64,000 nt of DNA from a virus, in IMG/VR virus record IMGVR_UViG_3300027782_000032, positions 32,001 through 96,000 of that record. One strand, written 5' to 3'. Positions 25,335 to 50,891 of the stretch are shown here, piece after piece. The notes under the pieces were generated by a model. That model was not told the DNA's origin. It searched no databases and worked only from the letters and a program-made list of their open reading frames with translations. Position 1 is the first letter of the stretch, and each line of letters starts with the position of its first letter. The translations under genes were made by a program, and so were the position numbers.

Positions 25335-25691
25335 TTATCTAGGCCGCATACTGAGAATATTTTCAGTTAAGCTTCCGCTCTTCATAAGCTCAAGCATGAC
25401 CTCTGCCATCTTAGCATAATTATTACCTTGGGTGTTAGTGGAGACGTCTCCACTACTTTGAGCCACTGCTGCTGCTTGATTTGACACAGGCGGCAGCATC
25501 GTAGAAGGGGCCATAAGAGCTGGCGAAGTGTTAACGTTCTTTACATCTTGAGGTGATGGTTTTTCTGATTTTGCTGCAGATAAAGATGGTGAAGCCCCTG
25601 CAGAAGGAATGGTGGGAGCAGTCAATGGCTTTAAAGCTGAAGGCTTACTAGGCTGACCCATGTTAGCCCACTTGTGTATAAAGTCGCTCAT
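25335..25691 (-). CDS. Small Pro/Ser-rich hypothetical protein
   Basis: 118 aa, coupled to the stop of the RNAP beta'-C gene. Confidence 0.55.
   Translation of the reverse strand: MSDFIHKWANMGQPSKPSALKPLTAPTIPSAGASPSLSAAKSEKPSPQDVKNVNTSPALMAPSTMLPPVSNQAAAVAQSSGDVSTNTQGNNYAKMAEVMLELMKSGSLTENILSMRPR
25436..25455. repeat. Dispersed palindrome copy 4 (20-bp perfect: TAGTGGAGACGTCTCCACTA)
   Basis: Core at 25438-25453; encodes SGDVST. Confidence 0.95.
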
Positions 25692-27610
25692 TATAAAACT
25701 CCGTCATTTTCAATTGGTTTAAGTATTTCACTCTTAGGTTTTTCTACTTTAAATCCTTTTACTGGACCGCTCTTACCAAAGTCTACAGCCTTGGCTAATG
25801 ACGGCACATAGGACGTGCCCTTCTCGTCGCTTACCGCACCACGATGCACGGCATTTAAAGTTGACTTTCTAAGATTGCTTCCAAGCATTCTAGTCATCCA
25901 GTCTGGGTCATGCTGAAGGTTTTCCAAACCCCTAACGAAGTGAGCTTCAAACGGAGCAGGGTCTTTGTGAACAGTAATCTTAGAGACACCAAACTCATTT
26001 AAGTCTTTTATCATAGAAGGCTTGATAGGAGTCCCTATACTGTAGTGCAGCACGGGCTGCTCAAGGTATTTACCAATAGCTTCTCTTGGATTTACTATGG
26101 TATGTCCTTCTCTAGGTTCCCAATCGTGTTCTACCGAGTCATAAGGTACGACGTCGTCTGGAGCGTACTGCTTGTACTCATCGCTCATCTTGACGTGATT
26201 GATAAGGCCTTTCGACATGACTTCTATGTTGCGTCTGTTTCCAGACATGCCTGCGCCTTTCATGGCTCCTTTAAAGGCTTGTACAAACTGACGCCTACCT
26301 TCACCTATTCCTTTGAACCTAGTAAGCATAGCAGGGTTGGCAATACCGTCAGACAATGTGTCCCCAGCCTCTACTACATCGTTAAGCTTCACAGACAAGT
26401 TTACTCCAGGGTTTACGTGGTGCTCAACTCCGTCTATCGCTATGAATGTGCCACCTGTAGGAGCTTCTTTAATTCCAGTAACCTTACCATCACGCTGAGC
26501 ATGAGCTGCCCAGTAAGGAGACTGCTTAGGTGATTGAACAAGCTGGTTTAAGTGTTTAAAGCCTGAGACTGCCCCAGCTGCTCCAGCTACTCCACCTGTG
26601 TGCTTAGAGCTTAGCTGACCTTGAGAAATAGGCTCGGATAGAGCTTGCATAGCGGCAATACCTATGGCGTCGCCTATTGGAGCAAAGCTGCCTCTTTCCC
26701 TTATGCCTAAATCTCTAGAGTATAGCCCTCCGTCAGGAGCTCCAGTTGCTATAGGGCTTCTTACTAAGAGCCTTTTTACGTTGTTAGCCTTTAAGTCTTT
26801 TATAACTCTAGGTGTAAGCACGGTGTTTCTAGCATAGCCCCCAGCTGCCATAGCTAGAAGCGCGCCTTCGTTATCATCATCCTCTATGTCTACAGGAAGT
26901 CCACGGCTTTCAAACCGTTTAGGATCGTCAGCGTCGTCACCTACGACAACCATTCTATGACCTATCTGATTTAGCTGTTTTGAAAAGAATCCAGCGTCCA
27001 TTGTTGCGAACTTAGTATCAGCAACTCCTTTACGGGCACCGAATGCTCCAGCAAAGTACTCAGCAGGATTTAAGCCTTTAGAGTATGAGTTGAACACAGG
27101 AATGGGAATAGCATTATCGTGATGATCGGTGTAGAGTAGATCTCCACCTCTAAGGCTTTTAAGGTTCATCGGCTTACCACGCGACCCTGACTGAATCTGT
27201 CTAGCTAGCTGGTTACCTTCTCGTAGTGAGTCATCAAATATGCCTTTTTCCATACCGCTTTGAGCATTGTTAAGCAGCTCAATCATACTACTATTTTTAG
27301 TGTCTTCATCTATTCTAGAGTTTCTCATTATTCCATCTATAGCTAGCTTTAGCTTAGCCTTAGCGTCTATAGAGTGATTAGACTCCCTTAGGTCTTTTAG
27401 TCCGAATGAAAATCCTCCACTGTTATAAGACACATCTCTACCGATATCAAAAAGCTTCTTTGATATGTCTTTGTACTTCTCTGGATGATTTTGAGCTATG
27501 ATCTGCATAAGCGAAGCAGAAGCTTTTGAATCTAAAGATCTGGTGTAATCTCTTAGCTCTGCAGGAAGGGCGTCGTTAACCATGATCTGACCTATGGTGG
27601 TCTTAAGCAT
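25691..27610 (-). CDS. rpoC: Multisubunit RNA polymerase, C-terminal half of beta' (bridge helix, trigger loop)
   Basis: SGSRG; GLNPAEYFAGAFGARKGVADT...AGFFSKQL (bridge helix); GDAIGIAAMQALSEPISQGQLSSKHTGG (trigger loop). Confidence 0.93.
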   Translation of the reverse strand: MLKTTIGQIMVNDALPAELRDYTRSLDSKASASLMQIIAQNHPEKYKDISKKLFDIGRDVSYNSGGFSFGLKDLRESNHSIDAKAKLKLAIDGIMRNSRIDEDTKNSSMIELLNNAQSGMEKGIFDDSLREGNQLARQIQSGSRGKPMNLKSLRGGDLLYTDHHDNAIPIPVFNSYSKGLNPAEYFAGAFGARKGVADTKFATMDAGFFSKQLNQIGHRMVVVGDDADDPKRFESRGLPVDIEDDDNEGALLAMAAGGYARNTVLTPRVIKDLKANNVKRLLVRSPIATGAPDGGLYSRDLGIRERGSFAPIGDAIGIAAMQALSEPISQGQLSSKHTGGVAGAAGAVSGFKHLNQLVQSPKQSPYWAAHAQRDGKVTGIKEAPTGGTFIAIDGVEHHVNPGVNLSVKLNDVVEAGDTLSDGIANPAMLTRFKGIGEGRRQFVQAFKGAMKGAGMSGNRRNIEVMSKGLINHVKMSDEYKQYAPDDVVPYDSVEHDWEPREGHTIVNPREAIGKYLEQPVLHYSIGTPIKPSMIKDLNEFGVSKITVHKDPAPFEAHFVRGLENLQHDPDWMTRMLGSNLRKSTLNAVHRGAVSDEKGTSYVPSLAKAVDFGKSGPVKGFKVEKPKSEILKPIENDGVL

Positions 27611-27612
27611 GA

Positions 27613-27831
27613 TTAAGCTCCTATGTTTATTTTCTTAACAATAGGAGGATTAATTCCATATTGCCTTAATATTTCTGTAAAACCATTATCTGCAGCTGTG
27701 TAGCAGATAATGGTGCTGTTTGGATTCTCTAGAAACAAGGCTATAGGATTACTGTCTTTATCGTAAACAACTATCCTTGTAGCTTTAACAACTGGACTAA
27801 CATCAAACAAGTTGTGGTAATCAAGAAACAT
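27613..27831 (-). CDS. Small hypothetical protein
   Basis: 72 aa filling the gap between co-oriented genes. Confidence 0.5.
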   Translation of the reverse strand: MFLDYHNLFDVSPVVKATRIVVYDKDSNPIALFLENPNSTIICYTAADNGFTEILRQYGINPPIVKKINIGA

Positions 27832-27835
27832 GATA

Positions 27836-28492
27836 CTAGTCTTTCTTAAGTCTTAGTAAATGAAGAATGCCTGCTGCCTTTTCACTTACGCTGAAGTTGT
27901 CAGCCGCTGTCTTCATAGGCTGAGCTCCTTGACTTGGAGCACCGCTTGGACCTTGCTGTTGTCCGTCAGAGCCCTGCTGCCCCTTAGGGTCATCAAGAAT
28001 ATCATGAGGCAAGTTAAGCCCTAAGGATGAGTAAAGATGAGTCATGAGCTTTTGAATGCGGTGCATGTACACCTCAGTCTGAGCTCCGTCATTCTTCTTT
28101 GCAGCTCCCTTACCGCCGCCTTTAGCCTCAGCCATAGCTCGCTGCATTTCGTCTTTTACAACTGACCTGATTTGTTCTGTAGGATCAGGAGGAGCACCGC
28201 CCATAGAAGGGTCCATAGGAGGGGCACCACCAGCAGCGGCTGGGTCCATAGGAGGAGCACCACCAGCCATAGCAGGATCCATTGGAGGGGCACCACCGGC
28301 CATAGCTGGGTCCATAGGAGGAGCACCGCCAGCCATAGCAGGATCCATTGGAGGAGCTCCTTGTGGAGGAGCGCCGCCCATAGAAGGATCCATTGGAGGA
28401 GCGCCTGGAGGAGCCCCTGCTTGTTCTGGAGGCATGAATGCCTGCTTGACTCTAAGCTGTGCCTGCTTCAAAAGATACTTATTGATAGCCAT
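27836..28492 (-). CDS. Pro/Gly/Met-rich repeat protein
   Basis: 218 aa; tandem GGAPPMDPAMA-type repeats; LKQA, VKQA, MKTAA motifs. Confidence 0.65.
   Translation of the reverse strand: MAINKYLLKQAQLRVKQAFMPPEQAGAPPGAPPMDPSMGGAPPQGAPPMDPAMAGGAPPMDPAMAGGAPPMDPAMAGGAPPMDPAAAGGAPPMDPSMGGAPPDPTEQIRSVVKDEMQRAMAEAKGGGKGAAKKNDGAQTEVYMHRIQKLMTHLYSSLGLNLPHDILDDPKGQQGSDGQQQGPSGAPSQGAQPMKTAADNFSVSEKAAGILHLLRLKKD
28181..28435 (-). repeat. In-frame ~33-bp tandem repeats (GGAPPMDPAMA)
   Basis: About six imperfect 11-aa units; related units at 16574-16672. Confidence 0.85.
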
Positions 28493-28512
28493 GTTGATTA
28501 CCTTATTTATTA

Positions 28513-29061
28513 TTATCGAGGTTCTGCGTCTAACGCTGGCATGTTGACCTGCTTATTTTGCAAGTTATACTTTTCGTATGGGTCTAAGTAGCTGTGGGCT
28601 AGGTTTACTGGAGGAGCAATGTAATCTGAAGCATTATTAACATTACCTGACAAGTACATATCTCGGTCAGCACCTGTACGGCCCATGCCAAGTCTAATTG
28701 CGGCTTCATTAATACCGGCGCCGCCTAAGGCACCGACACCGCCACCAGCAAGAGCACCGCGGCCAAGTCGGCCAAGAATGCCTACGCCTTTCTTTCGTTT
28801 ACCAAAAAGAGCGTTGCCTATGCCGCCAACGCCAGCGCCTACGCCACCACCCAAGATAGCTGCTTGAGCTGTTGGATCAAGCCCTTTGTAATAATCTAAA
28901 GCGTTGTTACCAAGACCTTTTAACCCTGACATTGCGCTGTCACCAAGGCCTTTAAGGCTGTCCATCATGCCTTCGCCAATTGCTTGTTTTACAAGCATGC
29001 CGTTTTTACGACCTAGATAAGCAGCAAGTTTAGTTGATCGTTCGATTCTAGCGAAGTCCAT
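28513..29061 (-). CDS. Glycine-zipper protein, putative ejection protein
   Basis: ILGGGVGAGVGGIG and GALAGGGVGALGGAG; N-leader TKLAAYLG...VKQA. Confidence 0.5.
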   Translation of the reverse strand: MDFARIERSTKLAAYLGRKNGMLVKQAIGEGMMDSLKGLGDSAMSGLKGLGNNALDYYKGLDPTAQAAILGGGVGAGVGGIGNALFGKRKKGVGILGRLGRGALAGGGVGALGGAGINEAAIRLGMGRTGADRDMYLSGNVNNASDYIAPPVNLAHSYLDPYEKYNLQNKQVNMPALDAEPR

Positions 29062-29141
29062 TTCACAATCTCCATGTGGTATATAGTAAAGCCGTTAGAC
29101 AAGTTTAACCTACGATTAATAGCTATTGCTATAGCAAATAG

Positions 29142-29780
29142 CTATCCTACCAGTAAAGGCGCAGCTCTCCTAAGCAATTCAGGTCTTAGAAGGCCGTAGT
29201 CTTTTAGTACTTTAGATGTAGCCAGTAAGTCTTTGTTATGGTTACCAGCACTGTAAAGACCCAGCGCTCCACCCATAGCTGCAGGAGCCAAAGTAGCTGC
29301 TATAGATGTTGACAGAGGCTGCCCTGTTAACCTACTAGCAAGAAGACCTCCAAGGCCACCTAAGCCTGCGTATCCAGCGGCTCTAAGTGTAGGATTAGCT
29401 CTGTGCTTTGAGAAGTCGTACTTTTCAGAAGGGTCATCTTGAAGACGTCCTAGCATTCCACTTAGAGCAGGTCTGCTTATACCGTAGTTGTCCAAGTCTT
29501 CGTCAGTTGGATTAACCATGTTTCTAGCTTGGTCCATCATTGACATTGCTTCTGGCATTCTGTCAGGACCTGGCCTCATCCTTGTAGCAAGCTGCATGTT
29601 ACGAGCTGACTTCTCGGATGTTAGCTTATCCCAGTTTTTCTTGTCTGGGTAAGCTTCACTGCCTGGCTTGGCTGGAGGTGCTCCCCTTTTCTTTTTTGCT
29701 TGAACGTTAGCCCACAAGCCTGGGTTGCTCTCTGATGCAGCTGATTTAAAAAACAAATTATGCAGTCCTTGCAAGCTCAT
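29142..29780 (-). CDS. Glycine-zipper protein, putative ejection protein
   Basis: AAGYAGLGGLGGLLA and AAMGGALGLYSAG; FKSAA, EKSA; start refined to the ATG after GGAG. Confidence 0.5.
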   Translation of the reverse strand: MSLQGLHNLFFKSAASESNPGLWANVQAKKKRGAPPAKPGSEAYPDKKNWDKLTSEKSARNMQLATRMRPGPDRMPEAMSMMDQARNMVNPTDEDLDNYGISRPALSGMLGRLQDDPSEKYDFSKHRANPTLRAAGYAGLGGLGGLLASRLTGQPLSTSIAATLAPAAMGGALGLYSAGNHNKDLLATSKVLKDYGLLRPELLRRAAPLLVG

Positions 29781-29802
29781 AGTAGTCTCCAAAGTTTAAT
29801 AA

Positions 29803-29900
29803 CCCAGCTGAAAAGACTTCGTCGCTCTGACGCACTTCCGCTTCGAGCGTCGATTAGTCCCAGGAGAGTGCTAAAACAGGCCCTAGCCTTTCCAGCTAAG
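29803..29900 (-). ncRNA. Candidate structured cis-regulatory RNA (multibranch)
   Basis: 13-bp closing stem with 3 G-U pairs on the minus strand only; two internal stem-loops; ends ~12 nt before the next SD. Confidence 0.45.
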
Positions 29901-29911
29901 TACATATAATA

Positions 29912-31405
29912 TTACTCTTTACTTCCAATTTGTTTAAGTACATTTAGGAATTTTTCATTAAGTTTCTGCTTACGATTGGCAGCGTTGATCAAGTAGTCAT
30001 CTGTTGCAGGGATAGGGTCTGCACCTATACCTATATGACGCAGCAAAGATCTTAGTCTTCCTGGAGCAGTCCTAGCTATGTAACGTTCTATTGAAACTTT
30101 TCTGTCTTCTGGATCAAGATGGTCATGGCTGTCAAACCTAAGAGCTCGGCCTTCGCTCTGGCTGCTTCTAGCTGTATTCCAGTGAGGGTCAAGCAGTTGA
30201 ACTAGCTTGGTACCTTTAAACGACAAACCTTCTGTTCCTGCTGGACCTAGCAAAGCTACCTTAAGCTTATCGCTGTTGTAGTCGTCAACCAGTCTTTTAC
30301 GCTCTTTATCTGATAGTGCACCTGTAAACGAAGCTGCAGGAATACCTGCTCTGTCTAAAGCGGCTTGGTAAGGCGACAACCCTGCATCGATAAAGTTGGA
30401 GAAGATAAGAGCTTTGCCTTTAGGGTCTTTGTCTAAAAGCCCCTTAAGATTACCAAACGCTGTAGTAAGCTTTGGAGAATCATCGAAAGCTTTTTGAATG
30501 TCTTTGTTTTCTTTCATGAACGGAAGTGTTGAAAGCCCTACCTGCCTAAGCCCTGTCATAAAGCTAGACATTCTGCTTACTTCATCTTTTGTTAGAGGGT
30601 AGTTCCTCTCTAGCTTCCACCTAAGTACAGTAGGAAGCTGACCCATTATATGGCTGTTAAGGTCTGTCTGATCTCGGTTCATTTCTACGACTACGTCTTT
30701 GCGATTAACTTCAGCCTTGGGAGCTAGCGGTGCAAAGTAGTCTACCTTACCTTTTAGCTTGTCTTTAAGTTGCTGCTGATTAATTATCTCTGGCTCTGCT
30801 GGATCTGAGTTTAGAAGTCTGTTGTACCAAGTAGGACTGGCTGTGTCTTTTACATAAGTGTCTTCAAACTCATTCTTACTAACGTCCTCTCCTGTAAGTA
30901 TGTTATACGGCAATGTAAAGTCGCTAGGGTCATTTACCACTGGAGTGCCGGTAAGCATCACAACCTGTTTTGCTTTTCTAGCAGCCTCCATAAGGTTCTT
31001 AGCTTGAGCGGACGCTGGGTTTCTAAATCTGTGAGCTTCGTCTATTAGAATAGAGCCTGGGTTATCTATTGGTTTTCCAAGTGCTAGGCCGGTATGACTC
31101 ATGACGCTGCTAGGTGTTGCAGTGTCTTGGTCTATAAACTTCTCTTGCTCCTTGCGTAAGTTGTTACGTAAGGCAGCAGGAACTACAGCTGTGTAAGGTA
31201 TCTTTGACTCGTCTGCTGAAGCTAATCCGCTTAAAGTCTTACCAGAGCCAAGACTATGGTAAAGCAGCATGCGAGCTTTACCAGTTGTGTCTAGCTGTTT
31301 CTGTACCTTGTCCACTACTCCCTGCTGGTGTGGCTGCAGAGAGATATTAGGATTTAGATCGGCTTGTTTTGTGGAGACGTCTCCACTGTTGTACTCTTGG
31401 GTCAC
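29912..31405 (-). CDS. SF2 (SNF2-related) helicase/ATPase, similar to the poxvirus D6/D11 transcription helicases
   Basis: LLYHSLGSGKT (I), IDEAH (II), LTGTPVVN (III), LIFSNF (IV), AGTEGLS (V), DPHWN...QSEGRALRFDSH (VI). Confidence 0.85.
   Translation of the reverse strand: MTQEYNSGDVSTKQADLNPNISLQPHQQGVVDKVQKQLDTTGKARMLLYHSLGSGKTLSGLASADESKIPYTAVVPAALRNNLRKEQEKFIDQDTATPSSVMSHTGLALGKPIDNPGSILIDEAHRFRNPASAQAKNLMEAARKAKQVVMLTGTPVVNDPSDFTLPYNILTGEDVSKNEFEDTYVKDTASPTWYNRLLNSDPAEPEIINQQQLKDKLKGKVDYFAPLAPKAEVNRKDVVVEMNRDQTDLNSHIMGQLPTVLRWKLERNYPLTKDEVSRMSSFMTGLRQVGLSTLPFMKENKDIQKAFDDSPKLTTAFGNLKGLLDKDPKGKALIFSNFIDAGLSPYQAALDRAGIPAASFTGALSDKERKRLVDDYNSDKLKVALLGPAGTEGLSFKGTKLVQLLDPHWNTARSSQSEGRALRFDSHDHLDPEDRKVSIERYIARTAPGRLRSLLRHIGIGADPIPATDDYLINAANRKQKLNEKFLNVLKQIGSKE
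31371..31386. repeat. Dispersed palindrome copy 5 (perfect 16-mer)
   Basis: Within codons 7-12 (SGDVST) of the helicase gene. Confidence 0.95.
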
Positions 31406-31407
31406 GG

Positions 31408-34400
31408 CTACTCCACTATGACAACTTTGTCGTTGGCGTCTATCTCACCGGAACGGTATGCACGCATGGCATCAGCCTTAGTCTTGAAATAACGCTCAGG
31501 CCTCTTTGATGCTTCAGAGGTAGCTGTGTAAAGTCCGCCTTGATATTCATTCATCGGCAACTGGTGAACCTTGAAGTTCTTTACAGCAAATAGATTTCTA
31601 CTAGGAAGCATCTTCTCTATCGCATCCTTTACAGACTCATCAGTGGTTGGAACGTGATAGTTCATAGCGTCGCCATCGAAGTCGGCGCCAAACCCCTTTA
31701 CAATAATAGGAGGGACCTGAAGCGTACTACCCTTGACCAGCTTCGGCTTGAAAGCCATTACACCATATCGGTGAAGAACTGGGGCCCTAGTAATGATTAC
31801 TGGCCTTGCTTCCATCTCAGAAGTCATGGCATCCATAGCCATAGGGTCTTTCTTCTCTATCATTTCAGAGGCTTTAAATCTATCGACTCCTCTTTTTACA
31901 AGTCGTCGCATAATGAACGGCTTATAAACCGACCAAGCTCTGTCTTCAGGAAGACCTACTTGATCCATGTCCAAGTCTGGGTTAGGAGTAATAGCAGCTC
32001 GACCAACCATGTCTACGTTTGACGCAAGAAGCTTTCTCTGAAGAACGCCATACTTTGGATTGTCACCAAAGACTTGCTTTAGTATTCCCTTAACATTCTT
32101 CTGTTCTAGCTTTGGATTGGCGGAGTCTCCAAGTCCAGTAACTGCTTTAAATGAGTCGTATAAAGCTAGCCTGTGGTCTGACAGATTTGAAAAGCTCTTA
32201 GAAGCTTCTTTCATTTCATTGTTAGAGTCGATTAACTCCTTGTAAAGATAGTTAGCGTCTCCAACCATAGGCAACCCACTTTGTTGCATAACGCTTACAG
32301 GCCTGAACAAAGGAGGAAGCACTGGAACCTTGCTCATCATCCAGTCAGAAGGATGCATCTTAAGGCTCTGAGCTGTTTTAAGATAACCAAGCTTGCGCAC
32401 AGCTGTGTCACGATACGACTTCTTACCTGAGGCTATCTGAGCCCTAGCTTTTATAAGCTCTTGGTCAACGTTTATCTTTTTAAGGGCTGAGCTGATTGCT
32501 TCAGGTCCTTTAACACCGTTAAGCTCTTCCTTTCCAGAAAGAACGTCTCTAAACTTGTTCTCAGTAAGCCCTAGAATTCTTCTAATAGGCTCTTCCATGA
32601 CTGGGTTAGGCATAGATTCGTGCAGCTTAACGTGGCTCCACATAGTGCCGCCATGACCTCCTGTTAGCCTGTTATCAAAAAGGCCATCACCAGCAGGCTT
32701 CATTCCGTTTTCCCAGTCTACTGTATCTGATCTCTTAATTTCTCTATCACCGGACAGAGCGTCAACGTCTTTGTCGGTCATAGCCATAAGCTGTGTCTTA
32801 GATCCATTTCTAACTGGGTTGATTCCAGCTCCTTGAAGCTGAGCCATAAACTTTCGGTAGGTCAGCGGGACCCTTGGTATAGGTAAAGACTTTCCAGTCA
32901 TAAACGCTGCCCAGTAGTCGTCATTCTTCTGTCCCCTAATCGACCCAGCGTCCCTTAGAACCTCATGAGCACCATGAGATAGAAGTGCATTAACATCCAT
33001 AAGAGCCATGCGCTTGCTGCCTTCTTCTCCACCTTTTGCTGGAGTTTCCTCTGCAGTGTATCCGCTAGCTATACCGCGGCCTTGTCCTTTAGACTCTGAG
33101 GTATGGTGAAGCTTCATAAAGAACCTGTTACCAGTGAAGATGTTCTTTATCTTCTTACCTGATTCTGGGTCTTCGATGTCTTCCATGTCGCTAAGGTTGT
33201 TTTGCTTAAGCTCATTTATTGCAAACTCTGTAAGGTCATTAATGTTATCAAAGTCTTTTATAGCGTAGCGCTTTCCTGTCTTCTCAGCAACTTTTCCAAG
33301 AGCTGCCTCTACCATCTGGCTTGGATTGGTTCTAGTTATAACCCCTAGTGGATTAAGAAGTATTTCAAAAGGTCTACCTTGCGCGTCTCTAGGCATTTTA
33401 TCTTCTGGTATAACTGCAGCTATAACACCCTTATCTCCATACCTTCCAGAGAGCTTGTCACCTTCTTTCATCGGGTTAAGACTTTTAACAGTTACCGAAT
33501 ACCCCTTTTTAGTTTGAGCTATGTCAGTTACTATTCCTTCGTTCTCGTGATCCCATGTAGTTGTTGCGTTTGTAAACCCGTTACGTGATCTTCCAACCTG
33601 CTGATTATGGGCTCTTGACAGTATGTTAGCTTGTAAGATAAGTGGGTCACCTTTTCTTACAACTGTGCCAGCCTTTATAACACCGTTGTCATCCATGCCA
33701 GACAGGGCTTCCTTAGAGTACTCAGAAGGAAACAGAGTTAAAAAAGGCTTCTTTCCATGCTTTGAATCGTCGCCAAGCTCAGCCTCATGCTGGTACATAT
33801 GCTCTGACGTTAATCTCTTTGCTGCGCCTTCAGATATGACAATCGCGTCTTCAAAGTTGTATCCTTTGTAAGGTATGTACGCCGACCTTAGATTTGTACC
33901 TAAAGCAGCTGTACCTTTATCGTCAGTATAGTTAGACCTAGCCAATAGGTCTCCATTTCCAACTACATCTCCTACTTTTACGGTAGGCGTATTGTGCAAA
34001 AACGTCTTACGATTGAATGGAAGATTGTTGTAAATCTCTTTCTTATGCAGCTGTCCGTCATCACCCCTAATGTGTATCTCGTCTCCATCCACTTTTATAA
34101 CCTGTCCTGCTACGGTAGACCTTACAGCACCCATGTGGCCGCCATAAGATTCTTCATAAGACTTATCGTCTTCGTCTGGCATTCCCGATTGCACATAAGG
34201 AGATTCTGGGTTTTGAAGGGGTAGCGCCTGCGTAAGCATTCTAGCGCCCATCATAACTCTCTGGCCTTTAGTTGCGCTCTTAAGAGGAATCATGTTTGCT
34301 AAGTGGTTAAAGGAGCTTTCCATTCTTGGAAGCTCGTAGTTAACGTCTTTCCTGTCTACGTACTTGATCTTTCCGTTGACCAGTGCAGCTATCTTATTAT

Positions 34401-35865
34401 TGGTTTTGTCTGCCATTTGATTTGGAAAAGCTATTGCAGATCCTGCAAGCTCTTGAGGAGTTTTCCATGCGTCTTCTCCTGTATTGACGTCTCTAAAGCT
34501 ACCATAAACCTTTCCGTCTATGCCCTTACGAGAGTTGATAGCTATTCTGCTATCCACTCCAACCTTAAGAGACTCAGGAGTTAATAAAGGGTCTACAAAC
34601 CCGAAGTGAGATGGCTGCACATTACGAGCTTCTTCTGGCACTGATTGAAGAGAAGGTATACCACCCTCTCCAAGTCTACTAACCCTAGTTATCTGATTAA
34701 GCAAGTCGGCTGGGTTGACCTCTTCAAGAGGCTGACCAAGTCCGCTAGTCATAATAGCGCCATTTATCTGAGAGTCTAGAAACCCAGGAGCAAAAGAGCT
34801 TAGGTTCTTTTTAAAGCTGGCTTTCCATAGCAGCGGCCTCATTACTCTATGGGCTACCTTTACCCTTTCTGAAAATAGGTCTTCTGGCCCTATCATAGAC
34901 TGGTACGACATAGCGTCACGGTCGTCTGGATCTTGTTCTTTCCTATGAACTGCAAGCAGTTTTTTTGTAGCTGCTATGATAGAGTCTGCTGAAACATTGG
35001 CAAACGGGCTACCAAGTGTCCGTGAGTTAACCTCTGGGTCCATCTCCATCTTTGACATAGCCTCAATCACCGACTTCTTCCTGCTCTCAGGAGTGACTAC
35101 GTCGCCTGGCTTTGATTTAGCTATTCTGTTGAATATTTTATCAAGATGGCTTGGGTCGTCTGTATCAGCGTTGGCTTGGTATATTTCATTACCCCAAGCT
35201 TCTCTCAGCTGCTTGTCGCTAGCGCCCAAAGCCTTAAGAAGTGGAGTTATAGGAACAGAAGACTGACCGAATCCTATAGAAAAAACTCCTTTAGCTGGGT
35301 CAAGCGAGTATCTATGCGATGCGCCTTTTCCAGGCATTATGTTTGCGTGACTCTCTACGTCACCGCTATTTGTAACTCTTGTGAACACTCCAGGCTTAAG
35401 TCGCATCTGATTTGCCAGCGTGTACTCTGTGCCTTTTACTATAAACGTTCCCCTGTCTGTAAGATAAGGAACCTTGGCTAGAGTTGTTCTCTTAGAATCT
35501 AAGACCTCGCCTGTCTCATTATCTGTAAGGTTAAGAGTACCCTTTAGGCTTCTGCTAAGAGTGTTACCTTTTAAGATAGCTTCTTTCTGTGACTTAATTG
35601 ACTTAGTTTCTTCTTCGTCATTCCAGCCAACTTCAGCAATGCTTAAAGTGTGCCTTTGATTTACTAAAGGCTGAATGCCAGCTGCAGACGCTTGAACTCC
35701 TCCGAATATAGCAGCTCTAGTAGCTGCTACATCATCAAACCGACGCATGGTTGGCGGTGGCGCTACTGGCTTTAAAGGAGCCTTAGAACTAACCAAGCCG
35801 ACTGGCTTGCTTAGCGTCGGCTCTGGTATTAGGTTGTCTTCATCGTCTGAGAATATTCCAGCCAT
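31408..35865 (-). CDS. rpoB: Multisubunit RNA polymerase, beta fused to N-half of beta' (catalytic DFDGD)
   Basis: beta motifs GYNFEDAI, GDKLSGRYGDKGVI, ILLNPLGV, MKLHH; beta' motifs VPVLPPLFRP, LLASNVDMVGRAAI, ITRAPVLHR, GADFDGDAMNYHVP. Confidence 0.95.
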   Translation of the reverse strand: MAGIFSDDEDNLIPEPTLSKPVGLVSSKAPLKPVAPPPTMRRFDDVAATRAAIFGGVQASAAGIQPLVNQRHTLSIAEVGWNDEEETKSIKSQKEAILKGNTLSRSLKGTLNLTDNETGEVLDSKRTTLAKVPYLTDRGTFIVKGTEYTLANQMRLKPGVFTRVTNSGDVESHANIMPGKGASHRYSLDPAKGVFSIGFGQSSVPITPLLKALGASDKQLREAWGNEIYQANADTDDPSHLDKIFNRIAKSKPGDVVTPESRKKSVIEAMSKMEMDPEVNSRTLGSPFANVSADSIIAATKKLLAVHRKEQDPDDRDAMSYQSMIGPEDLFSERVKVAHRVMRPLLWKASFKKNLSSFAPGFLDSQINGAIMTSGLGQPLEEVNPADLLNQITRVSRLGEGGIPSLQSVPEEARNVQPSHFGFVDPLLTPESLKVGVDSRIAINSRKGIDGKVYGSFRDVNTGEDAWKTPQELAGSAIAFPNQMADKTNNKIAALVNGKIKYVDRKDVNYELPRMESSFNHLANMIPLKSATKGQRVMMGARMLTQALPLQNPESPYVQSGMPDEDDKSYEESYGGHMGAVRSTVAGQVIKVDGDEIHIRGDDGQLHKKEIYNNLPFNRKTFLHNTPTVKVGDVVGNGDLLARSNYTDDKGTAALGTNLRSAYIPYKGYNFEDAIVISEGAAKRLTSEHMYQHEAELGDDSKHGKKPFLTLFPSEYSKEALSGMDDNGVIKAGTVVRKGDPLILQANILSRAHNQQVGRSRNGFTNATTTWDHENEGIVTDIAQTKKGYSVTVKSLNPMKEGDKLSGRYGDKGVIAAVIPEDKMPRDAQGRPFEILLNPLGVITRTNPSQMVEAALGKVAEKTGKRYAIKDFDNINDLTEFAINELKQNNLSDMEDIEDPESGKKIKNIFTGNRFFMKLHHTSESKGQGRGIASGYTAEETPAKGGEEGSKRMALMDVNALLSHGAHEVLRDAGSIRGQKNDDYWAAFMTGKSLPIPRVPLTYRKFMAQLQGAGINPVRNGSKTQLMAMTDKDVDALSGDREIKRSDTVDWENGMKPAGDGLFDNRLTGGHGGTMWSHVKLHESMPNPVMEEPIRRILGLTENKFRDVLSGKEELNGVKGPEAISSALKKINVDQELIKARAQIASGKKSYRDTAVRKLGYLKTAQSLKMHPSDWMMSKVPVLPPLFRPVSVMQQSGLPMVGDANYLYKELIDSNNEMKEASKSFSNLSDHRLALYDSFKAVTGLGDSANPKLEQKNVKGILKQVFGDNPKYGVLQRKLLASNVDMVGRAAITPNPDLDMDQVGLPEDRAWSVYKPFIMRRLVKRGVDRFKASEMIEKKDPMAMDAMTSEMEARPVIITRAPVLHRYGVMAFKPKLVKGSTLQVPPIIVKGFGADFDGDAMNYHVPTTDESVKDAIEKMLPSRNLFAVKNFKVHQLPMNEYQGGLYTATSEASKRPERYFKTKADAMRAYRSGEIDANDKVVIVE

Positions 35866-36934: not shown

Positions 36935-37288
36935 TTAAGTTCTCCTGTTAGGTGCTAACTTTCCTTGAACGTCAGCCCACTCCATGTGAATACTAAGCTT
37001 CTTATCTTCTGAAATAATCTTAGTTCTGTCTATAATTACACAAGCCCTGTTAGCAGCTAAATCTCTAATTTTAGTATACTCTTTAAGTTCTTCAGGATCG
37101 CTAAGATCAAATATCTTAACTTTAACATCATACTGAAGCGGTATATTCTCATACTCTTCTTGAGTAGTGTTTGGAGCCATTGGGCCGCCTAGTATAGGAA
37201 AACCTTGAGAGGTAGTCCCAGACAGCTGTCTATATTTAACACCTACACCACCAAGCCCAAACTGATTTAAAATACTAGAATCTCTCAT
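36935..37288 (-). CDS. Hypothetical protein
   Basis: 117 aa, co-oriented, abutting its neighbours. Confidence 0.55.
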   Translation of the reverse strand: MRDSSILNQFGLGGVGVKYRQLSGTTSQGFPILGGPMAPNTTQEEYENIPLQYDVKVKIFDLSDPEELKEYTKIRDLAANRACVIIDRTKIISEDKKLSIHMEWADVQGKLAPNRRT

Positions 37289-37299
37289 ATTAGTCCTTT

Positions 37300-38187
37300 C
37301 TAATACCTAGTAACACCTGAAATTCCTCTGTCTCGTTCTCGTCTACGTTTAGCCATCTCCGTCTGTCGTTTAATAAGTGTTGCCTGCCTATCGTACTCGT
37401 TTGTAAGCTCCTCGTTTAACATCTCTTCTCTAGATGGAATAGGAGCCTTGGTTACGTTATGCAAACCTGGTCCAACTACTTGGTTTCCTAAGTAGTACCC
37501 GCCTGCACCCGCTGCTGTAAGGCCTGCCAAGCCTACAAGAGGAATAGAGCCTAGTTGTCCAAGAATACTAAGATCAAGAGCCCTCTTCTCTGCAAAGTAC
37601 AGAGCTTGTTTTACTCGTATCTTTATCTCATCAAGGTTGAGGCCTTCATCAATGCACTTGGCCAAGAAGGCTACTTTAAACATTTGCTTATCGTCCATCG
37701 CTGCTCCTTGCTTTCCTAGAGTAGGTTTGGTAGCTGCAGTAGGGGTTACAGTACCTTTGTTTAAATCTACAGAAGCCCCACCTTTAACTGGCTTTATAGT
37801 CTGACCAGACATTGCAGTCATAGGAAGTCCAGCTAATCCTGCACTGCTAGCGCCCATTAAAGACCCAGCAAACGAAGCTGCGTCAGCAGGAGCTACTCGA
37901 TTGGCTCCTAACTGGGCAGGAGGGGCGCTTGGCCCAACTATTGGAATAGACTTGTCTATAAGTTTATTGCTAAAAGAACTATCATTTAAAGGGTATCTAG
38001 CTACTGCTTCCCTAGTCTTAGCGTGAGCTGCTGAGTTAAATATTTCTTTTGTGTAATTTCTTTTAGAGGTTAAAAGATTCTGTGTGTTTACAGGTAGCTT
38101 ACCCCAGCCGTTGTAAGGCTCAGTAGGCTGCCTTCCTGGAGCTATAGCTTCTGCGTTAATCTGAGCTTGGGTCTTAACTGGAGGCAT
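37300..38187 (-). CDS. Glycine-zipper protein, putative ejection protein
   Basis: LVGLAGLTAAGAGGYYLG; EKRA motif. Confidence 0.5.
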   Translation of the reverse strand: MPPVKTQAQINAEAIAPGRQPTEPYNGWGKLPVNTQNLLTSKRNYTKEIFNSAAHAKTREAVARYPLNDSSFSNKLIDKSIPIVGPSAPPAQLGANRVAPADAASFAGSLMGASSAGLAGLPMTAMSGQTIKPVKGGASVDLNKGTVTPTAATKPTLGKQGAAMDDKQMFKVAFLAKCIDEGLNLDEIKIRVKQALYFAEKRALDLSILGQLGSIPLVGLAGLTAAGAGGYYLGNQVVGPGLHNVTKAPIPSREEMLNEELTNEYDRQATLIKRQTEMAKRRRERDRGISGVTRY

Positions 38188-38191
38188 GGTG

Positions 38192-38560
38192 TTATCCTAG
38201 TATGATTCCTGAGTTGGTTACACCCTTTGGTACGCTAGCTCCAGTTGACCAGATCTTTCGGTTGTCGTGTGCTAGCTGAGCAGCTACCTTTGGGTCTGTA
38301 GGGTCGCCCTGCTCTTTAGCTTCTTGAATACATAGCATAATGTCTCTAGCCGCTGCAATAATCTGAGTCTTCTCGTCTTGATGCTGAACTCTGGTAGACT
38401 CTTCAAACAAGGCTTTTGCTCGCCTTCTCATTACCGAGGTAGGCTCGACCTTATCAGATCCGTCTCTATTATCATGAATGTTTATGAGGCCACCTTCAGC
38501 CCAGAACTCAATCTGGTTGTATTTATATGTCTTCTTAATGATTAAAGCCGGAACGTCCAT
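38192..38560 (-). CDS. Hypothetical protein
   Basis: 122 aa with AAGGG SD-like site upstream. Confidence 0.55.
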   Translation of the reverse strand: MDVPALIIKKTYKYNQIEFWAEGGLINIHDNRDGSDKVEPTSVMRRRAKALFEESTRVQHQDEKTQIIAAARDIMLCIQEAKEQGDPTDPKVAAQLAHDNRKIWSTGASVPKGVTNSGIILG

Positions 38561-42477: not shown

Positions 42478-42548
42478 AAGAACTCTTACTGAGCTCCTGA
42501 ACACTATTGTATTCAATTCATTATGACACGTTTATGGCCTGAATTAAG
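42478..42548. repeat. 71-bp direct repeat copy A (promoter plus leader)
   Basis: First 39 nt identical to 43163-43201; remainder diverged but aligned. Confidence 0.9.
42520..42548 (-). promoter_or_regulatory. Putative sigma70-like promoter CTTAAT-N17-CATAAT (copy 1)
   Basis: Same bipartite motif and spacing at 43205-43233 and 44269-44297. Confidence 0.65.
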
Positions 42549-42558
42549 GGGGTGTCTA

Positions 42559-42605
42559 ATAGCTAAAAAAAGCACCTTCAAACCCCTAAGGGCTGAAGGT
42601 GCTTT
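42559..42605 (-). terminator. Intrinsic terminator of cassette 2
   Basis: AAAGCACCTTCA/TGAAGGTGCTTT stem, inner CCC-CTAA-GGG; tail T7-AGCTAT. Confidence 0.85.
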
Positions 42606-42613
42606 GGTTAGAT

Positions 42614-43108
42614 CTAGTTTGCAAAAACTTTTCCAGCTTTTGCGTACTTGATTGTAGCTGAGGCGTTTATAGCCTTAAGCGACAGCTGTAGATCCGGTGG
42701 CATCACCGCCAGCTTAGCCCACTGTGGGCTAGTGGATGAGAATGCCTTAGCTGCATCTTTACCAAAGTGGTAAAGTACAGTCTCATCAAAACTATCATTA
42801 GCTAGCTCTGCGGCTAACTCATCCGACGGAAGACGATGAGTCTTGTCGAAAAAGCTAGCCTTAAAACTATCGATGTACGCCACTACATACGCCTTCTTCA
42901 CGGCATCGTAAGCCGACTCCTGCGGAGCCACTTCAATCGCCACCTCAGGCTCTACTGCAGGAGTAGCCTCAGGCTCCTCAAGCAACCTTAAAGCCATTTC
43001 TGAAGCAGCTGCCGATGCCTTCCTATCTGTGTATACCTTACCAAAAACTAGAATTGAGCATACAGAGACCACAGAAATCACAGCCCAAAAAACCTTATTA
43101 GTATTCAT
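42614..43108 (-). CDS. Membrane-anchored hypothetical protein
   Basis: N-terminal hydrophobic VFWAVISVVSVCSILVFG; SD AAGGAG. Confidence 0.65.
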   Translation of the reverse strand: MNTNKVFWAVISVVSVCSILVFGKVYTDRKASAAASEMALRLLEEPEATPAVEPEVAIEVAPQESAYDAVKKAYVVAYIDSFKASFFDKTHRLPSDELAAELANDSFDETVLYHFGKDAAKAFSSTSPQWAKLAVMPPDLQLSLKAINASATIKYAKAGKVFAN

Positions 43109-43162
43109 GGTTATTTCTCCTTTAATGAGATGGCCACCACAGCCAGTTAATTACAACAGTGC

Positions 43163-43233
43163 AAGAACTCTTACTGAGCTCCTGAACACTATTGTATTCA
43201 ACTCATTATGACGCAGTTTTGGCCTGAATTAAG
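43163..43233. repeat. 71-bp direct repeat copy B, containing promoter copy 2 (43205-43233)
   Basis: Matches 42478-42548. Confidence 0.9.
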
Positions 43234-43238
43234 CCCTG

Positions 43239-44012: not shown

Positions 44013-44027
44013 AAGAGTATCCTCCTG

Positions 44028-44063
44028 ATAGCTAAAAAAAGGCCAGAGCATAATGCTCCGGCC
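44028..44063 (-). terminator. Intrinsic terminator of cassette 3
   Basis: GGCC-GAGCA/TGCTC-GGCC stem; tail T7-AGCTAT. Confidence 0.75.
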
Positions 44064-44068
44064 TAGGT

Positions 44069-44233
44069 TTACCAGCTCCTTCGAACTGTCACAGATAAGT
44101 GTACCTTATCTATGATCTTGTCGTCCCACGGGCATGCCGTGGTACTGTAGGTACTCTCAACCGAATGAGAAACCTTAGGCGCACATCTGCATCCAGCAGC
44201 TGACAACACCAATACCAAAATTAAAATCCTCAT
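44069..44233 (-). CDS. 54-aa predicted lipoprotein (not in ORF track)
   Basis: SD AAGGAG; MRILILVLVLSAAGC signal with lipobox-like Cys15. Confidence 0.6.
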   Translation of the reverse strand: MRILILVLVLSAAGCRCAPKVSHSVESTYSTTACPWDDKIIDKVHLSVTVRRSW

Positions 44234-44268
44234 CGTAGCACTCCTTTGTTAGATGTAGAATCCATGTA

Positions 44269-44297
44269 ATTATGACGCAAAGACGCTATGGATTAAG
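44269..44297 (-). promoter_or_regulatory. Putative promoter CTTAAT-N17-CATAAT (copy 3)
   Basis: Hexamers and spacing conserved although the spacer sequence differs. Confidence 0.6.
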
Positions 44298-44303
44298 GGT
44301 CGT

Positions 44304-50849: not shown

Positions 50850-50891
50850 TTATCTCCTATCGGTTTTTCTTTTTAAGTTTAGAAACAGGAG
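50850..50891. repeat. 42-bp exact direct repeat (tail codons, stop and SD), copy A
   Basis: Identical to 51758-51799. Confidence 0.9.

What the first reader, a model, noticed from the sequence alone, without database searches (positions are those of the whole stretch)
25691..35865. RNA polymerase with beta fused to half of beta' and the rest of beta' five genes away
Seen: the 1485-aa ORF runs from beta region motifs through PLTYRKFMAQLQGAGINP (beta end) directly into beta' N-terminal motifs and the catalytic loop, ending soon after EYQGGLYTAT. The 639-aa ORF starts at TTIGQ and holds the bridge helix and trigger loop. Known: rpoB-rpoC fusions occur in Helicobacter and Wolbachia, and cyanobacteria split beta' (rpoC1/rpoC2) close to, but slightly after, this point. 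phiKZ-type enzymes are split differently. Inference: an independent fusion-plus-split architecture; no alpha, omega or sigma gene is recognisable in the window.
Basis: partly seen in the sequence, partly recalled or inferred. Interest (0 to 1): 0.8.

Follow-up and report, generated by a model that had tools for sequence, protein, structure and literature searches.

The report
Fused-and-split two-chain phage RNA polymerase
This uncultured ~190-kb phage encodes a bacterial-type RNA polymerase as just two proteins, all of beta joined to the front of beta-prime and the back of beta-prime on its own; the layout is real, is shared by hundreds of phages including cultured Salmonella phage Arash, and I found no paper that describes it.

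Summary
Observation confirmed. Window 31408-35865(-) is one 1485-aa ORF. It holds a complete beta joined without a linker to beta' (E. coli residues ~21-552). Window 25691-27610(-) is a 639-aa ORF holding the rest of beta', from the TTxG motif onward, with bridge helix and trigger loop. Five ORFs lie between them.

It is not an artefact. More than 150 protein clusters (50% identity level), Salmonella phage Arash (gp206 + gp216) and Vibrio phages D69/D148/D181 keep the same junction and the same breakpoint.

The family also lacks the beta' zinc-binding domain and is almost cysteine-free. I found no alpha or omega gene in two complete relatives. Each relative has one beta' catalytic domain per genome. 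A sigma-70-like gene accompanies the polymerase; here it lies about 7 kb outside the window. An SNF2-type helicase gene sits directly after the fused gene.

The fused clade branches outside the beta' of 12 sampled bacterial phyla. However, the layout is family-wide, the phiKZ-type beta' breakpoint falls at about the same place, and a sigma gene does exist.

Virion packaging rests only on Arash whole-particle proteomics.

This scan found the same layout earlier on other genomes. I class it as a new variant of a known kind.

The parts
32812..35865 (-). Beta moiety of the fused ORF (aa 1 to ~1018): a compact, complete beta with the GRYGDKGV catalytic-barrel motif. It ends at ...LQGAGINP.
   Evidence: Pfam Rpb2_3 and Rpb2_6. 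PDB phmmer hits to beta chains cover nearly their full length. Family alignment of the beta C-end.
32791..32829 (-). Beta/beta' junction (aa ~1013-1025). The beta C-terminal motif GINP runs straight into beta' at E. coli residue ~21. There is no linker, stop or frameshift.
   Evidence: Continuous ORF. Junction conserved in 13 diverse family members including Arash and Vibrio D69. The model is ordered across it, pLDDT 76-88. VIA-align places model residue 26 at E. coli beta' 21.
31408..32811 (-). Beta' N-terminal moiety of the fused ORF (aa ~1019-1485, stop included). It contains clamp helices, the catalytic double-psi beta-barrel (DPBB) domain and ~85 aa beyond the catalytic loop. The zinc-binding domain is replaced by a short TGGHGG loop.
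   Evidence: Pfam Rpb1_1 and Rpb1_2. phmmer to E. coli beta' 158-546 and cyanobacterial gamma 179-552. Structural alignment to E. coli beta' 21-552. Alignment of the ZBD region. 0 Cys.
31669..31683 (-). Catalytic Mg-binding loop D-F-D-G-D (aa 1395-1399, within GADFDGD).
   Evidence: Translation. D396/D398/G399/D400 of the 486-aa fragment are invariant in 32 family members. DxDGD is kept in Arash and D69.
29912..31405 (-). 497-aa SF2/SNF2-type helicase gene, starting 2 nt after the fused gene's stop. It is a candidate RNAP-associated ATPase (RapA-like). 0 Cys.
   Evidence: Pfam Helicase_C, ResIII, SNF2-rel_dom. PHROG 62 DNA helicase. 34% identical over its full length to Arash gp217, which was detected in Arash particles. 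Cys count.
29882..29900 (-). Terminator-like hairpin plus T-run in the 119-nt gap after the helicase gene. It suggests the two RNAP genes lie in separate transcription units.
   Evidence: Consensus scan. Intergenic gap list. Pattern match only.
27613..29792 (-). Four small ORFs (216, 182, 218 and 72 aa) of unknown function that complete the five-gene spacer. Several are Gly-rich and hydrophobic or low-complexity. The 218-aa gene is conserved in the same position upstream of beta'C in a 58%-identity relative, where a 74-aa gene (homology not tested) also sits where the 72-aa ORF does here.
   Evidence: ORF list. No Pfam or PHROG function. tblastn synteny with L006. Sequences.
25691..27610 (-). 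Beta' C-terminal chain (639 aa). It starts at MLKTTIGQ (the bacterial TTVGR motif, ~E. coli beta' 569) and runs to the beta' C-end. 0 Cys, so the second beta' zinc site is also gone.
   Evidence: Pfam Rpb1_5. phmmer to beta' chains, e.g. 8i23_D 577-1081 and M. tuberculosis 663-1181. N-terminal alignment to 9n9p_D 588-691. All 120 listed relatives start at the same residue.
26936..27067 (-). Bridge-helix region (aa ~182-225; GARKGVADTKFATMDAGFFSKQLNQ).
   Evidence: Translation. Long helix 182-225 in the model. It lies at the start of the Rpb1_5 match. The motif assignment is by eye against E. coli beta' 770-805 (my own knowledge).
26537..26668 (-). Trigger-loop region (aa ~315-358; ...SEPISQGQLSSKHTGGVAG...). 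No SI3-type insertion.
   Evidence: Translation. Contiguous alignment 269-478 to Thermus beta' 1174-1384. Invariant K336, H337, G340 in 30 relatives.

Best explanation
The two ORFs encode the catalytic core of the phage's own bacterial-type (two-barrel) RNA polymerase, with chain boundaries shifted relative to bacteria.

- Chain 1 is the whole of beta covalently continued into beta' residues ~21-552 (E. coli numbering). It therefore carries both catalytic barrels and the clamp helices.
- Chain 2 is beta' from ~569 to the end, with pore, funnel, bridge helix, trigger loop and C-terminal clamp part.

Shown:
- All catalytic signatures are intact.
- The junction and the breakpoint are fixed across a very large phage family.
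- Both zinc sites and nearly all cysteines are absent.
- No alpha or omega gene is detectable in two complete relatives.
- There is one beta' catalytic domain per genome.
- A sigma-70-family gene and an SNF2 helicase gene co-occur with it.

Inferred:
- The beta-beta' tether takes over the job of the alpha dimer, holding the two large subunits together.
- The enzyme uses the phage sigma-like protein to find phage promoters.
- The SNF2 ATPase acts on it as RapA does on E. coli RNAP.
- The set is probably loaded into the capsid and delivered with the DNA for early transcription. I put this last step at about 50%, because it rests only on the Arash particle proteome.
For: Domain content and boundaries.

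Family-wide conservation:
- 120 listed clusters at >=54% identity all carry PF00562 + PF00623, are ~1450-1500 aa, and sit on contigs up to 235 kb.
- The top 150 representatives at 50% clustering all span the junction, and the full-length ones end at the same C-terminus.
- An alignment that includes Arash gp206 and Vibrio D69 shows the same junction, the same ZBD replacement, DxDGD, and a C-end within 2 residues.
- All 120 beta'C relatives start at residue 1.

The spacer between the genes varies: 2, 5, 9 and 19 genes. The split is therefore old and the two chains are made separately.

No alpha or omega in the contig, Arash or D69, with positive controls in 14 genomes. One Rpb1_2 domain per genome.

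The sigma-like 275-aa protein at G000:C1:74254-75081 scores 26.9 bits on Sigma70_r3 (cut-off 25.3). It is homologous to Arash gp10 and to a D69 gene. The helicase is homologous to Arash gp217.

Cysteine: 0 Cys in 2896 aa of fused chain + beta'C + helicase + sigma-like protein, against a 0.92% contig average, which predicts ~27. 115 of 127 intein-free homologues have 0 Cys.

Arash gp206, gp216, gp10 and gp217 were all detected in phage particles. gp206 had the highest spectral count and 100% coverage (PMC10585845).
Against: - No biochemical data exist for any family member.
- The contig is only ~45% complete, so further subunits or a second polymerase could lie in the missing part of this genome. 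The complete Arash and D69 genomes show none.
- A very divergent alpha-like assembly protein cannot be excluded by HMM searches. Several conserved small ORFs of unknown function flank both genes.
- The Arash proteome was whole-particle LC-MS without a gel. It listed 116 of 272 proteins, including ribonucleotide reductases and RNA ligases, and its authors themselves allow carry-over of abundant proteins.
- The sigma-like protein reaches Pfam's cut-off only for region 3.
- I did not test whether the beta flap tip, which binds sigma region 4, is kept.
Confidence: 0.8

Rival explanations
1. Same two-chain polymerase, but not carried in the virion. It is made after infection, for middle or late genes, from promoters read by host RNAP. 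On this reading its detection in Arash particles is carry-over of an abundant protein.
For: The Arash preparation yielded 116 of 272 proteins, including metabolic enzymes, and its authors raise this possibility. Sigma-70-like promoter motifs (CTTAATYCA ... GTCATAAT) occur in some intergenic regions of the contig, so host RNAP may read part of the genome. There is only one polymerase set per genome, whereas phiKZ-type phages that inject a polymerase carry two.
Against: gp206 had the highest spectral count of all Arash proteins, and gp216, sigma gp10 and helicase gp217 were all among the detected proteins. In Arash and D69 the genes sit beside portal and structural genes, and the sigma-like gene sits in a block of particle proteins. 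The cysteine-free state is shared by exactly this set and a 1730-aa neighbour.
Confidence: 0.35
2. The 1485-aa product is a polyprotein that a phage protease cuts at or near the junction, giving ordinary separate beta and beta'N chains.
For: Head proteases trim many packaged proteins in large phages (my own knowledge). No gel or intact-mass data exist for any family member.
Against: The junction has no linker. Beta's last motif runs straight into beta' residue ~21, and the segment is predicted ordered (pLDDT 76-88). It is conserved as folded sequence rather than as a loop with a cleavage motif. E. coli and Helicobacter tolerate the uncut tether (my own knowledge: Severinov et al. 1997; Zakharova et al. 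1998).
Confidence: 0.06
3. The fused gene descends by horizontal transfer from a cellular rpoB-rpoC fusion (Helicobacter or Wolbachia type) and was split afterwards.
For: Cellular fusions exist. The tree did not include Campylobacterota or Rickettsiales.
Against: The fused clade is a single long branch outside 29 bacterial beta' sequences of 12 phyla (99 SH-aLRT). Its best matches in 185,579 species genomes are only 28-33% identical and spread over many phyla. Best PDB matches are Bacillota and cyanobacteria. The family lacks the ZBD that cellular fusions keep.
Confidence: 0.03
4. Artefact or decay: a mis-assembly or lost stop codon created the fusion, or beta' is a broken gene whose halves are no longer used. 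Alternatively, the halves are re-joined by protein trans-splicing.
For: None beyond the unusual layout. Inteins are common in this family.
Against: The boundaries are identical in hundreds of independent assemblies and in three or more isolate genomes. All catalytic motifs are intact. Arash proteomics covers 100% of gp206. The chain ends abut the beta' sequence with a gap of <=~15-20 residues and carry no intein-sized extension or nucleophile.
Confidence: 0.01

Closest known systems
Salmonella phage Arash gp206 (1525 aa) + gp216 (606 aa), with sigma gp10 and helicase gp217 (OQ632216; PMC10585845); also Vibrio phages D69, D148, D181 (OZ195729 etc.)
   Same: Same fused chain, same junction, same ZBD replacement, same breakpoint, same sigma-like and helicase partners, and no alpha or omega. 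These are true family members at 24-31% identity.
   Different: Only distantly related in sequence. Arash has 9 genes between the two RNAP genes and D69 has 2, against 5 here. In Arash the helicase follows beta'C rather than the fused gene. Arash and D69 keep 1-4 cysteines per chain. The paper annotates 'beta' and 'beta prime' and does not remark on the fusion or the split.
phiKZ-type jumbo-phage multisubunit RNAPs (vRNAP and nvRNAP; PMC7598289, PMC7824862)
   Same: Phage-encoded two-barrel enzyme without alpha or omega. Beta' is broken just after the catalytic barrel, at about the same place: the Noxifer nvRNAP beta'N end extrapolates to ~17 residues before this chain's end. An SF2/SNF2 helicase gene is linked to the RNAP genes. 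One set is virion-borne.
   Different: There beta is also split into 2-3 pieces and nothing is fused. They have two paralogous sets per genome, no sigma factor, and a phage-specific fifth subunit (gp68). Sequence similarity to this family is marginal (24-26% over the barrel).
Cellular rpoB-rpoC fusions (Helicobacter, Wolbachia) and the engineered E. coli beta-beta' tether (my own knowledge: Zakharova et al. 1998; Severinov et al. 1997)
   Same: The beta C-terminus is joined head-to-tail to the beta' N-terminus. This shows that the tether is compatible with an active enzyme.
   Different: Those keep an unsplit, full beta' with both zinc sites and still use alpha2 and omega. This clade lies outside the sampled bacterial beta' sequences.
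Cyanobacterial/plastid rpoC1 (gamma) + rpoC2 split of beta'
   Same: Beta' is made as two chains broken after the catalytic barrel.
   Different: Gamma runs ~65-70 residues further (gamma 552-558 of ~620 aligns with the end of this chain). Beta is separate, and the zinc sites, alpha and omega are kept.
mReC phages (Weinheimer & Aylward 2020, PMC7481178) and cultured phages with separate beta and whole beta' (Rhizobium phage RHph_Y65, Vibrio phage 1.031.O)
   Same: Medium-to-large tailed phages with a bacterial-like, deeply branching beta/beta' pair.
   Different: Their beta' is one chain of 1127-1263 aa, unfused, and keeps the four-Cys ZBD. That study's filters (each subunit >=800 aa, NADxDGD) would exclude this ORF pair, which has GADFDGD and a 639-aa beta'C. 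The paper mentions neither a fusion nor a split in these phages.

Membership tests
Two-barrel multisubunit RNAP catalytic core (beta/beta' homologues) | Beta-type barrel with the conserved lysine motif (GxxGxKG) and flanking beta domains | tested here: met
   Pfam Rpb2_6 E 2.2e-49 and Rpb2_3. GRYGDKGV present. Near full-length matches to solved beta chains.
Two-barrel multisubunit RNAP catalytic core (beta/beta' homologues) | Beta'-type barrel with the DxDGD metal-binding loop, plus bridge helix and trigger loop | tested here: met
   GADFDGD at aa 1393-1399, with the aspartates invariant in 32 relatives. Rpb1_2 and Rpb1_5. Structural alignment Z 23.8 to E. coli beta' 21-552.
Canonical bacterial core enzyme alpha2-beta-beta'-omega | Alpha (assembly platform) and omega subunits encoded | tested here: not met
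   No PF01000 or PF01192 match at E<=1 in the contig or in the complete Arash and D69 genomes. Controls were positive in 14 of 14 genomes. Very divergent analogues cannot be excluded.
Canonical bacterial core enzyme alpha2-beta-beta'-omega | Two zinc sites in beta' (N-terminal ZBD; second Cys4 site in the C-half) | tested here: not met
   0 Cys in both chains. The ZBD is replaced by a short TGG(H)xG loop in all aligned family members. Unfused phage beta' proteins keep the Cys4 cluster.
Arash-like fused/split phage RNAP family | One ORF running from beta through the same junction into beta' and ending at the same residue; a second ORF starting at the TTxG motif | tested here: met
Arash-like fused/split phage RNAP family | Co-occurring sigma-70-like gene (Arash gp10 type) and SF2/SNF2 helicase (gp217 type) | tested here: met
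   tblastn E 9e-17 to gp10 and 2e-67 to gp217. Sigma70_r3 26.9 bits. The sigma-like gene is also present in D69.
Arash-like fused/split phage RNAP family | Presence of the chains in virions | not testable with these tools
   Known only for Arash, from whole-particle LC-MS.
Cellular rpoB-rpoC fusion (Helicobacter/Wolbachia type) | Beta fused to a complete, unsplit beta' in one chain | tested here: not met
   The fused chain stops at E. coli beta' ~552. The rest is a separate gene 3.8 kb away.
Cellular rpoB-rpoC fusion (Helicobacter/Wolbachia type) | Phylogenetic position inside the fused bacterial lineages | tested here: inconclusive
   The clade lies outside 29 bacterial beta' sequences of 12 phyla, but Campylobacterota and Rickettsiales were not sampled and the branches are long.
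Cyanobacterial/plastid split beta' | Break at the gamma/beta' boundary, with beta separate | tested here: not met
   Gamma extends ~65-70 residues past this chain's end. Beta is fused here.
phiKZ-type jumbo-phage RNAP | Beta' broken just after the catalytic barrel | tested here: met
   Noxifer nvRNAP beta'N (490 aa) aligns at 277-443 to aa 1271-1421. Its end extrapolates to ~aa 1468 of 1485. The last ~47 residues are not aligned, so this is approximate.
phiKZ-type jumbo-phage RNAP | Beta split into 2-3 chains; two paralogous sets; no sigma factor | tested here: not met
   Beta is whole and fused. One Rpb1_2 domain per genome. A sigma-like gene is present.
mReC phage RNAP (PMC7481178) | Separate beta and beta' genes, each >=800 aa, with NADxDGD | tested here: not met
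   Fused chain with GADFDGD and a 639-aa beta'C. Criteria quoted.

The most novel reading that the evidence does not exclude
The family is a self-sufficient minimal holoenzyme: two chains (beta-beta'N and beta'C) with no alpha, omega, zinc or cysteine. The covalent tether replaces the alpha-dimer assembly platform. The enzyme is loaded into the capsid together with its own sigma-70-type factor and an SNF2 ATPase, and is injected with the DNA to start phage transcription independently of the host. That would be the first virion-borne, sigma-dependent multisubunit RNA polymerase. The shared post-barrel breakpoint with phiKZ-type enzymes could then reflect common descent of the two phage RNAP lineages rather than convergence.
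Probability: 0.35. Interest if true: 0.8.

Novelty: new variant of a known kind. Interest (0 to 1): 0.62.

Why it matters
All cellular RNA polymerases need an alpha-type platform to bring the two large subunits together. How phage enzymes manage without one is an open question; it is raised for phiKZ and AR9 in PMC7598289. This family offers a natural, widespread answer that can be tested directly: tether beta to beta' and cut beta' elsewhere.

The family has a cultured member on a standard laboratory host (Arash on Salmonella Typhimurium ATCC 14028). It also appears to keep sigma-factor use, unlike phiKZ-type enzymes.

A two-chain, zinc-free, cysteine-free bacterial-type polymerase would be an attractive minimal system for structural and mechanistic work. 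If it is injected, it would be a new way for a phage to start infection.

The family is also very common in freshwater and marine metagenomes (>150 clusters at 50% identity). It gives a long marker gene for a large, unnamed phage group that earlier RNAP-based surveys filtered out.

Tried and rejected
- **Artefact or pseudogene:** rejected on family-wide conservation.
- **Trans-splicing of the halves:** rejected. There is no intein-like extension at either end, and the ends abut the beta' sequence.
- **Unsplit relatives:** I searched longer relatives of the 639-aa chain for an unsplit beta'. All 120 listed start at the same residue. They are longer only through C-terminal extensions or inteins.
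- **Neighbouring genes fused in relatives:** no BLAST match of the extensions to any neighbour.
- **Family members in cellular genomes:** a scan of 185,579 species genomes gave only ordinary rpoC at 28-33% identity among the best 80.
- **Apparent cellular fusion:** a 2697-aa open frame in a Vicinamibacterales MAG (L069) is a GC-rich stop-free read-through upstream of a normal rpoC start, not a fusion.
- **T7-like single-subunit RNAP (PF00940):** no match, but the control genomes also gave none, so this is uninformative.
- **Arash's second sigma (gp196):** no match on this half-complete contig.
- **Annotation of neighbours:** Pfam, PHROGs and one ESM Atlas query on neighbours gave no function, except the helicase and a ribonucleotide reductase.
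- **Model of the 639-aa chain:** only moderate (pLDDT 66), so not used for fold search.
- **Literature:** five full-text searches found no description of this layout. The library lacks most subscription journals, so absence is not proof.
- **phiKZ/AR9 in the structure comparison:** these chains did not appear among the 50 rows shown. The breakpoint comparison therefore rests on a pairwise BLAST.


Full report
**What is there.** The window is the minus strand of bases 3257-67256 of a 92,955-bp IMG/VR viral contig, rated ~45% complete. On the window's minus strand a 1485-aa ORF (31408-35865) and a 639-aa ORF (25691-27610) lie in the same direction. Five ORFs of 497, 216, 182, 218 and 72 aa separate them.

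Pfam finds beta domains (Rpb2_3; Rpb2_6 at E 2e-49) followed by beta' domains (Rpb1_1; Rpb1_2 at E 3e-21) in the long ORF. It finds Rpb1_5 in the short one. Sequence searches of the PDB match residues ~99-1020 to nearly full-length beta. They match 1098-1479 to E. coli beta' 158-546, and the short ORF's 1-488 to M. tuberculosis beta' 663-1181.

**Exact boundaries.** An AlphaFold model of residues 1000-1485, built on 31 homologues, has mean pLDDT 84 and is ordered across the junction. VIA-align superposes model residues 26-486 on E. coli beta' 21-552 (Z 23.8) and on Synechococcus gamma 8-558. So beta ends at ...LQGAGINP (aa ~1017), and beta' starts at its residue ~21 with no linker. The chain stops at E. 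coli beta' ~552.

The short ORF begins MLKTTIGQ. This aligns with the bacterial 'TTVGR' motif: 9n9p_D residue 588, 8i23_D residue 577. Only ~12-20 residues of a variable loop are missing between the two chains.

The cyanobacterial gamma subunit runs ~65-70 residues further, so the break is not the cyanobacterial one. A phiKZ-like nvRNAP beta'N chain (Noxifer gp51, 490 aa) aligns at 277-443 with residues 1271-1421. By extrapolation it ends ~17 residues before this chain's end. The beta' breakpoint is therefore about the same as in phiKZ-type enzymes. [quoted passage not shown]

**Not an artefact: a family trait.**
- A word-seeded search returned 120 clusters at 54-99% identity. All carry the beta barrel plus the beta' barrel, most are 1440-1500 aa, and they sit on contigs up to 235 kb. 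Longer ones carry inteins.
- An exhaustive HMMER search with residues 600-1485 against 1.84 billion representatives returned, as its best 150, proteins of 44-59% identity. Their matches all fall within residues 600-1485 of the fused chain, the span that crosses the junction. The full-length ones end where this chain ends. Many are interrupted by one to five inteins.
- In the phage collection, Salmonella phage Arash (gp206 of 1525 aa and gp216 of 606 aa) and Vibrio phages D69, D148 and D181 have the same pair.
- A MAFFT alignment of 13 diverse members, including Arash and D69, shows the same junction, the same DxDGD loop and a C-terminus conserved to within two residues.
- All 120 listed relatives of the 639-aa chain start at the same residue.
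- The number of genes between the pair varies: 2 in D69, 5 here, 9 in Arash and 19 in a 58%-identical relative. The split is therefore old, and the gap is a variable region.

**Other derived features of the family.**
- The beta' zinc-binding domain is replaced by a short TGG(H)xG loop in every aligned member.
- Both chains, the adjacent helicase and the sigma-like protein have no cysteine at all: 0 in 2896 residues, against a contig average of 0.92%. 115 of 127 intein-free homologues of the fused chain also have none.
- Phages with a separate, whole beta' keep the four-cysteine ZBD and 16-23 cysteines. These are Rhizobium phage RHph_Y65 (1127 aa) and Vibrio phage 1.031.O (1263 aa).
- No alpha (PF01000) or omega (PF01192) match was found in the contig or in the complete Arash and D69 genomes, with positive controls in all 14 control genomes.
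- Each genome has a single beta' catalytic domain.

**Partners.** The gene that starts 2 nt after the fused gene's stop is a 497-aa SF2/SNF2-type helicase (Helicase_C, ResIII, SNF2-rel_dom; PHROG 62). It is 34% identical to Arash gp217. Iyer et al. noted a similar linkage of an SNF2-type helicase with phiKZ-type RNAP genes and proposed a RapA-like role (PMC7824862).

A 275-aa protein at contig 74254-75081, about 7 kb beyond window position 1, is a homologue of Arash gp10 (E 9e-17). It passes Pfam's cut-off for Sigma70_r3 and shows a weak region-4/HTH signal. D69 has one too.

A terminator-like hairpin follows the helicase gene. Otherwise the genes are packed without gaps.

**Origin.** A quick maximum-likelihood tree of beta' had 43 rows and 1173 columns. 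It puts the window, ten metagenomic representatives, Arash and D69 on one branch (SH-aLRT 99), outside a group of 29 bacterial sequences from 12 phyla (99). The unfused Rhizobium phage protein is a separate long branch.

Caveats: the branches are long, the method was 'quick', the tree is unrooted, and no Campylobacterota or Wolbachia were included. A scan of one genome for each of 185,579 species gave only ordinary rpoC at 28-33% identity. This supports a fusion that arose within phages, independent of the known cellular fusions. It does not prove it.

**How it most likely works.** The sequence shows a complete, apparently active catalytic core in two chains. The rest is inferred.
- The beta C-terminus and the beta' N-terminus are neighbours in bacterial RNAP. 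Tethering them is tolerated in E. coli and is natural in Helicobacter (my own knowledge: Severinov 1997; Zakharova 1998).
- In an enzyme without alpha, the tether would do the platform's job of keeping the two barrels together.
- The break after the beta' barrel falls between Pfam's active-site domain and the pore/funnel domains. The same place is used by phiKZ-type enzymes, so it is evidently a permissive seam.
- Promoter recognition is probably by the phage sigma-like protein.

**Packaging into the virion.** This rests on Arash proteomics. gp206 had the most spectra and 100% coverage, and gp216, gp10 and gp217 were all detected. However, the method was whole-particle LC-MS without a gel, 116 of 272 proteins were listed, and the authors allow for carry-over. 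I rate packaging at about even odds.

**Known or new.** The Arash paper labels the two proteins beta and beta' and does not mention the fusion or the split. The mReC paper's filters would exclude this ORF pair, and it does not describe such a layout. Two reviews of jumbo-phage RNAPs do not describe it either. Five full-text searches found nothing.

This scan has met the same layout before on other genomes and reached similar conclusions. My evidence was gathered independently of those reports. I class the finding as a new variant of a known kind (phage multisubunit RNAP), real and widespread. It is of clear interest to RNAP and phage biologists, but it is not unique to this window.

Noticed in passing
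relatives P0123-P0242 of window 25691-27610: In many relatives (~50% identity) the beta'C chain carries a long, variable C-terminal extension of 500-1400 aa that this window's 639-aa form lacks. Some extensions contain DUF5661, a P-loop kinase-like domain (AAA_18/AAA_33) or an acylphosphatase-like segment. Their function is unknown.
   Followed up: partly
relatives of both chains; Vibrio phages D181/D148: The family's RNAP genes are heavily invaded by inteins: LAGLIDADG_3, Hint and Intein_splicing domains, with up to six matched pieces and proteins up to 3350 aa. In D181/D148 a free-standing homing endonuclease gene interrupts the fused gene. This window's copies are intein-free.
   Followed up: no
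window 3-1151, 25691-35865, 48205-49113, 50857-51753, 61233-62411; contig C1:74254-75081: Cysteine-free proteins cluster. Besides the RNAP chains, helicase and sigma-like protein, a 1730-aa protein that runs off the window start and several 250-400-aa proteins have 0 Cys, against a 0.92% contig average. This may mark a shared fate such as ejection through the tail, but that is untested.
   Followed up: partly
window 36935-38560 and 27613-28492: Small ORFs of unknown function are syntenic with the RNAP genes in 58-63%-identity relatives. The 122-, 295- and 117-aa ORFs upstream of the fused gene, and the 218-aa ORF (GAPPMDP repeats) upstream of beta'C, have homologues there. A 74-aa gene sits where the 72-aa ORF does, homology not tested. 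They are candidates for extra polymerase-associated or particle proteins.
   Followed up: partly
window 25439 and 31372 (also 2176, 18125, 39475, 48188, 53667, 60763): The exact palindrome TGGAGACGTCTCCA recurs about every 5.5-16 kb between exact copies (about 7 kb if near-matches are counted). Two copies lie just inside the genes that follow each RNAP gene. This is the subject of other findings of this scan.
   Followed up: partly
window 42517-44303 (contig C1:22954-24740): Three neighbouring intergenic regions share a promoter-like motif, CTTAATYCA followed ~17-19 nt later by GTCATAAT. I did not test whether it is read by host RNAP or by the phage enzyme.
   Followed up: no
window 40020-42284 (+): A 754-aa class II-like ribonucleotide reductase (PHROG 367, E 1e-143) is one of only two long ORFs in the window on the plus strand. 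It is cysteine-rich (18 Cys), in contrast to the RNAP set.
   Followed up: no
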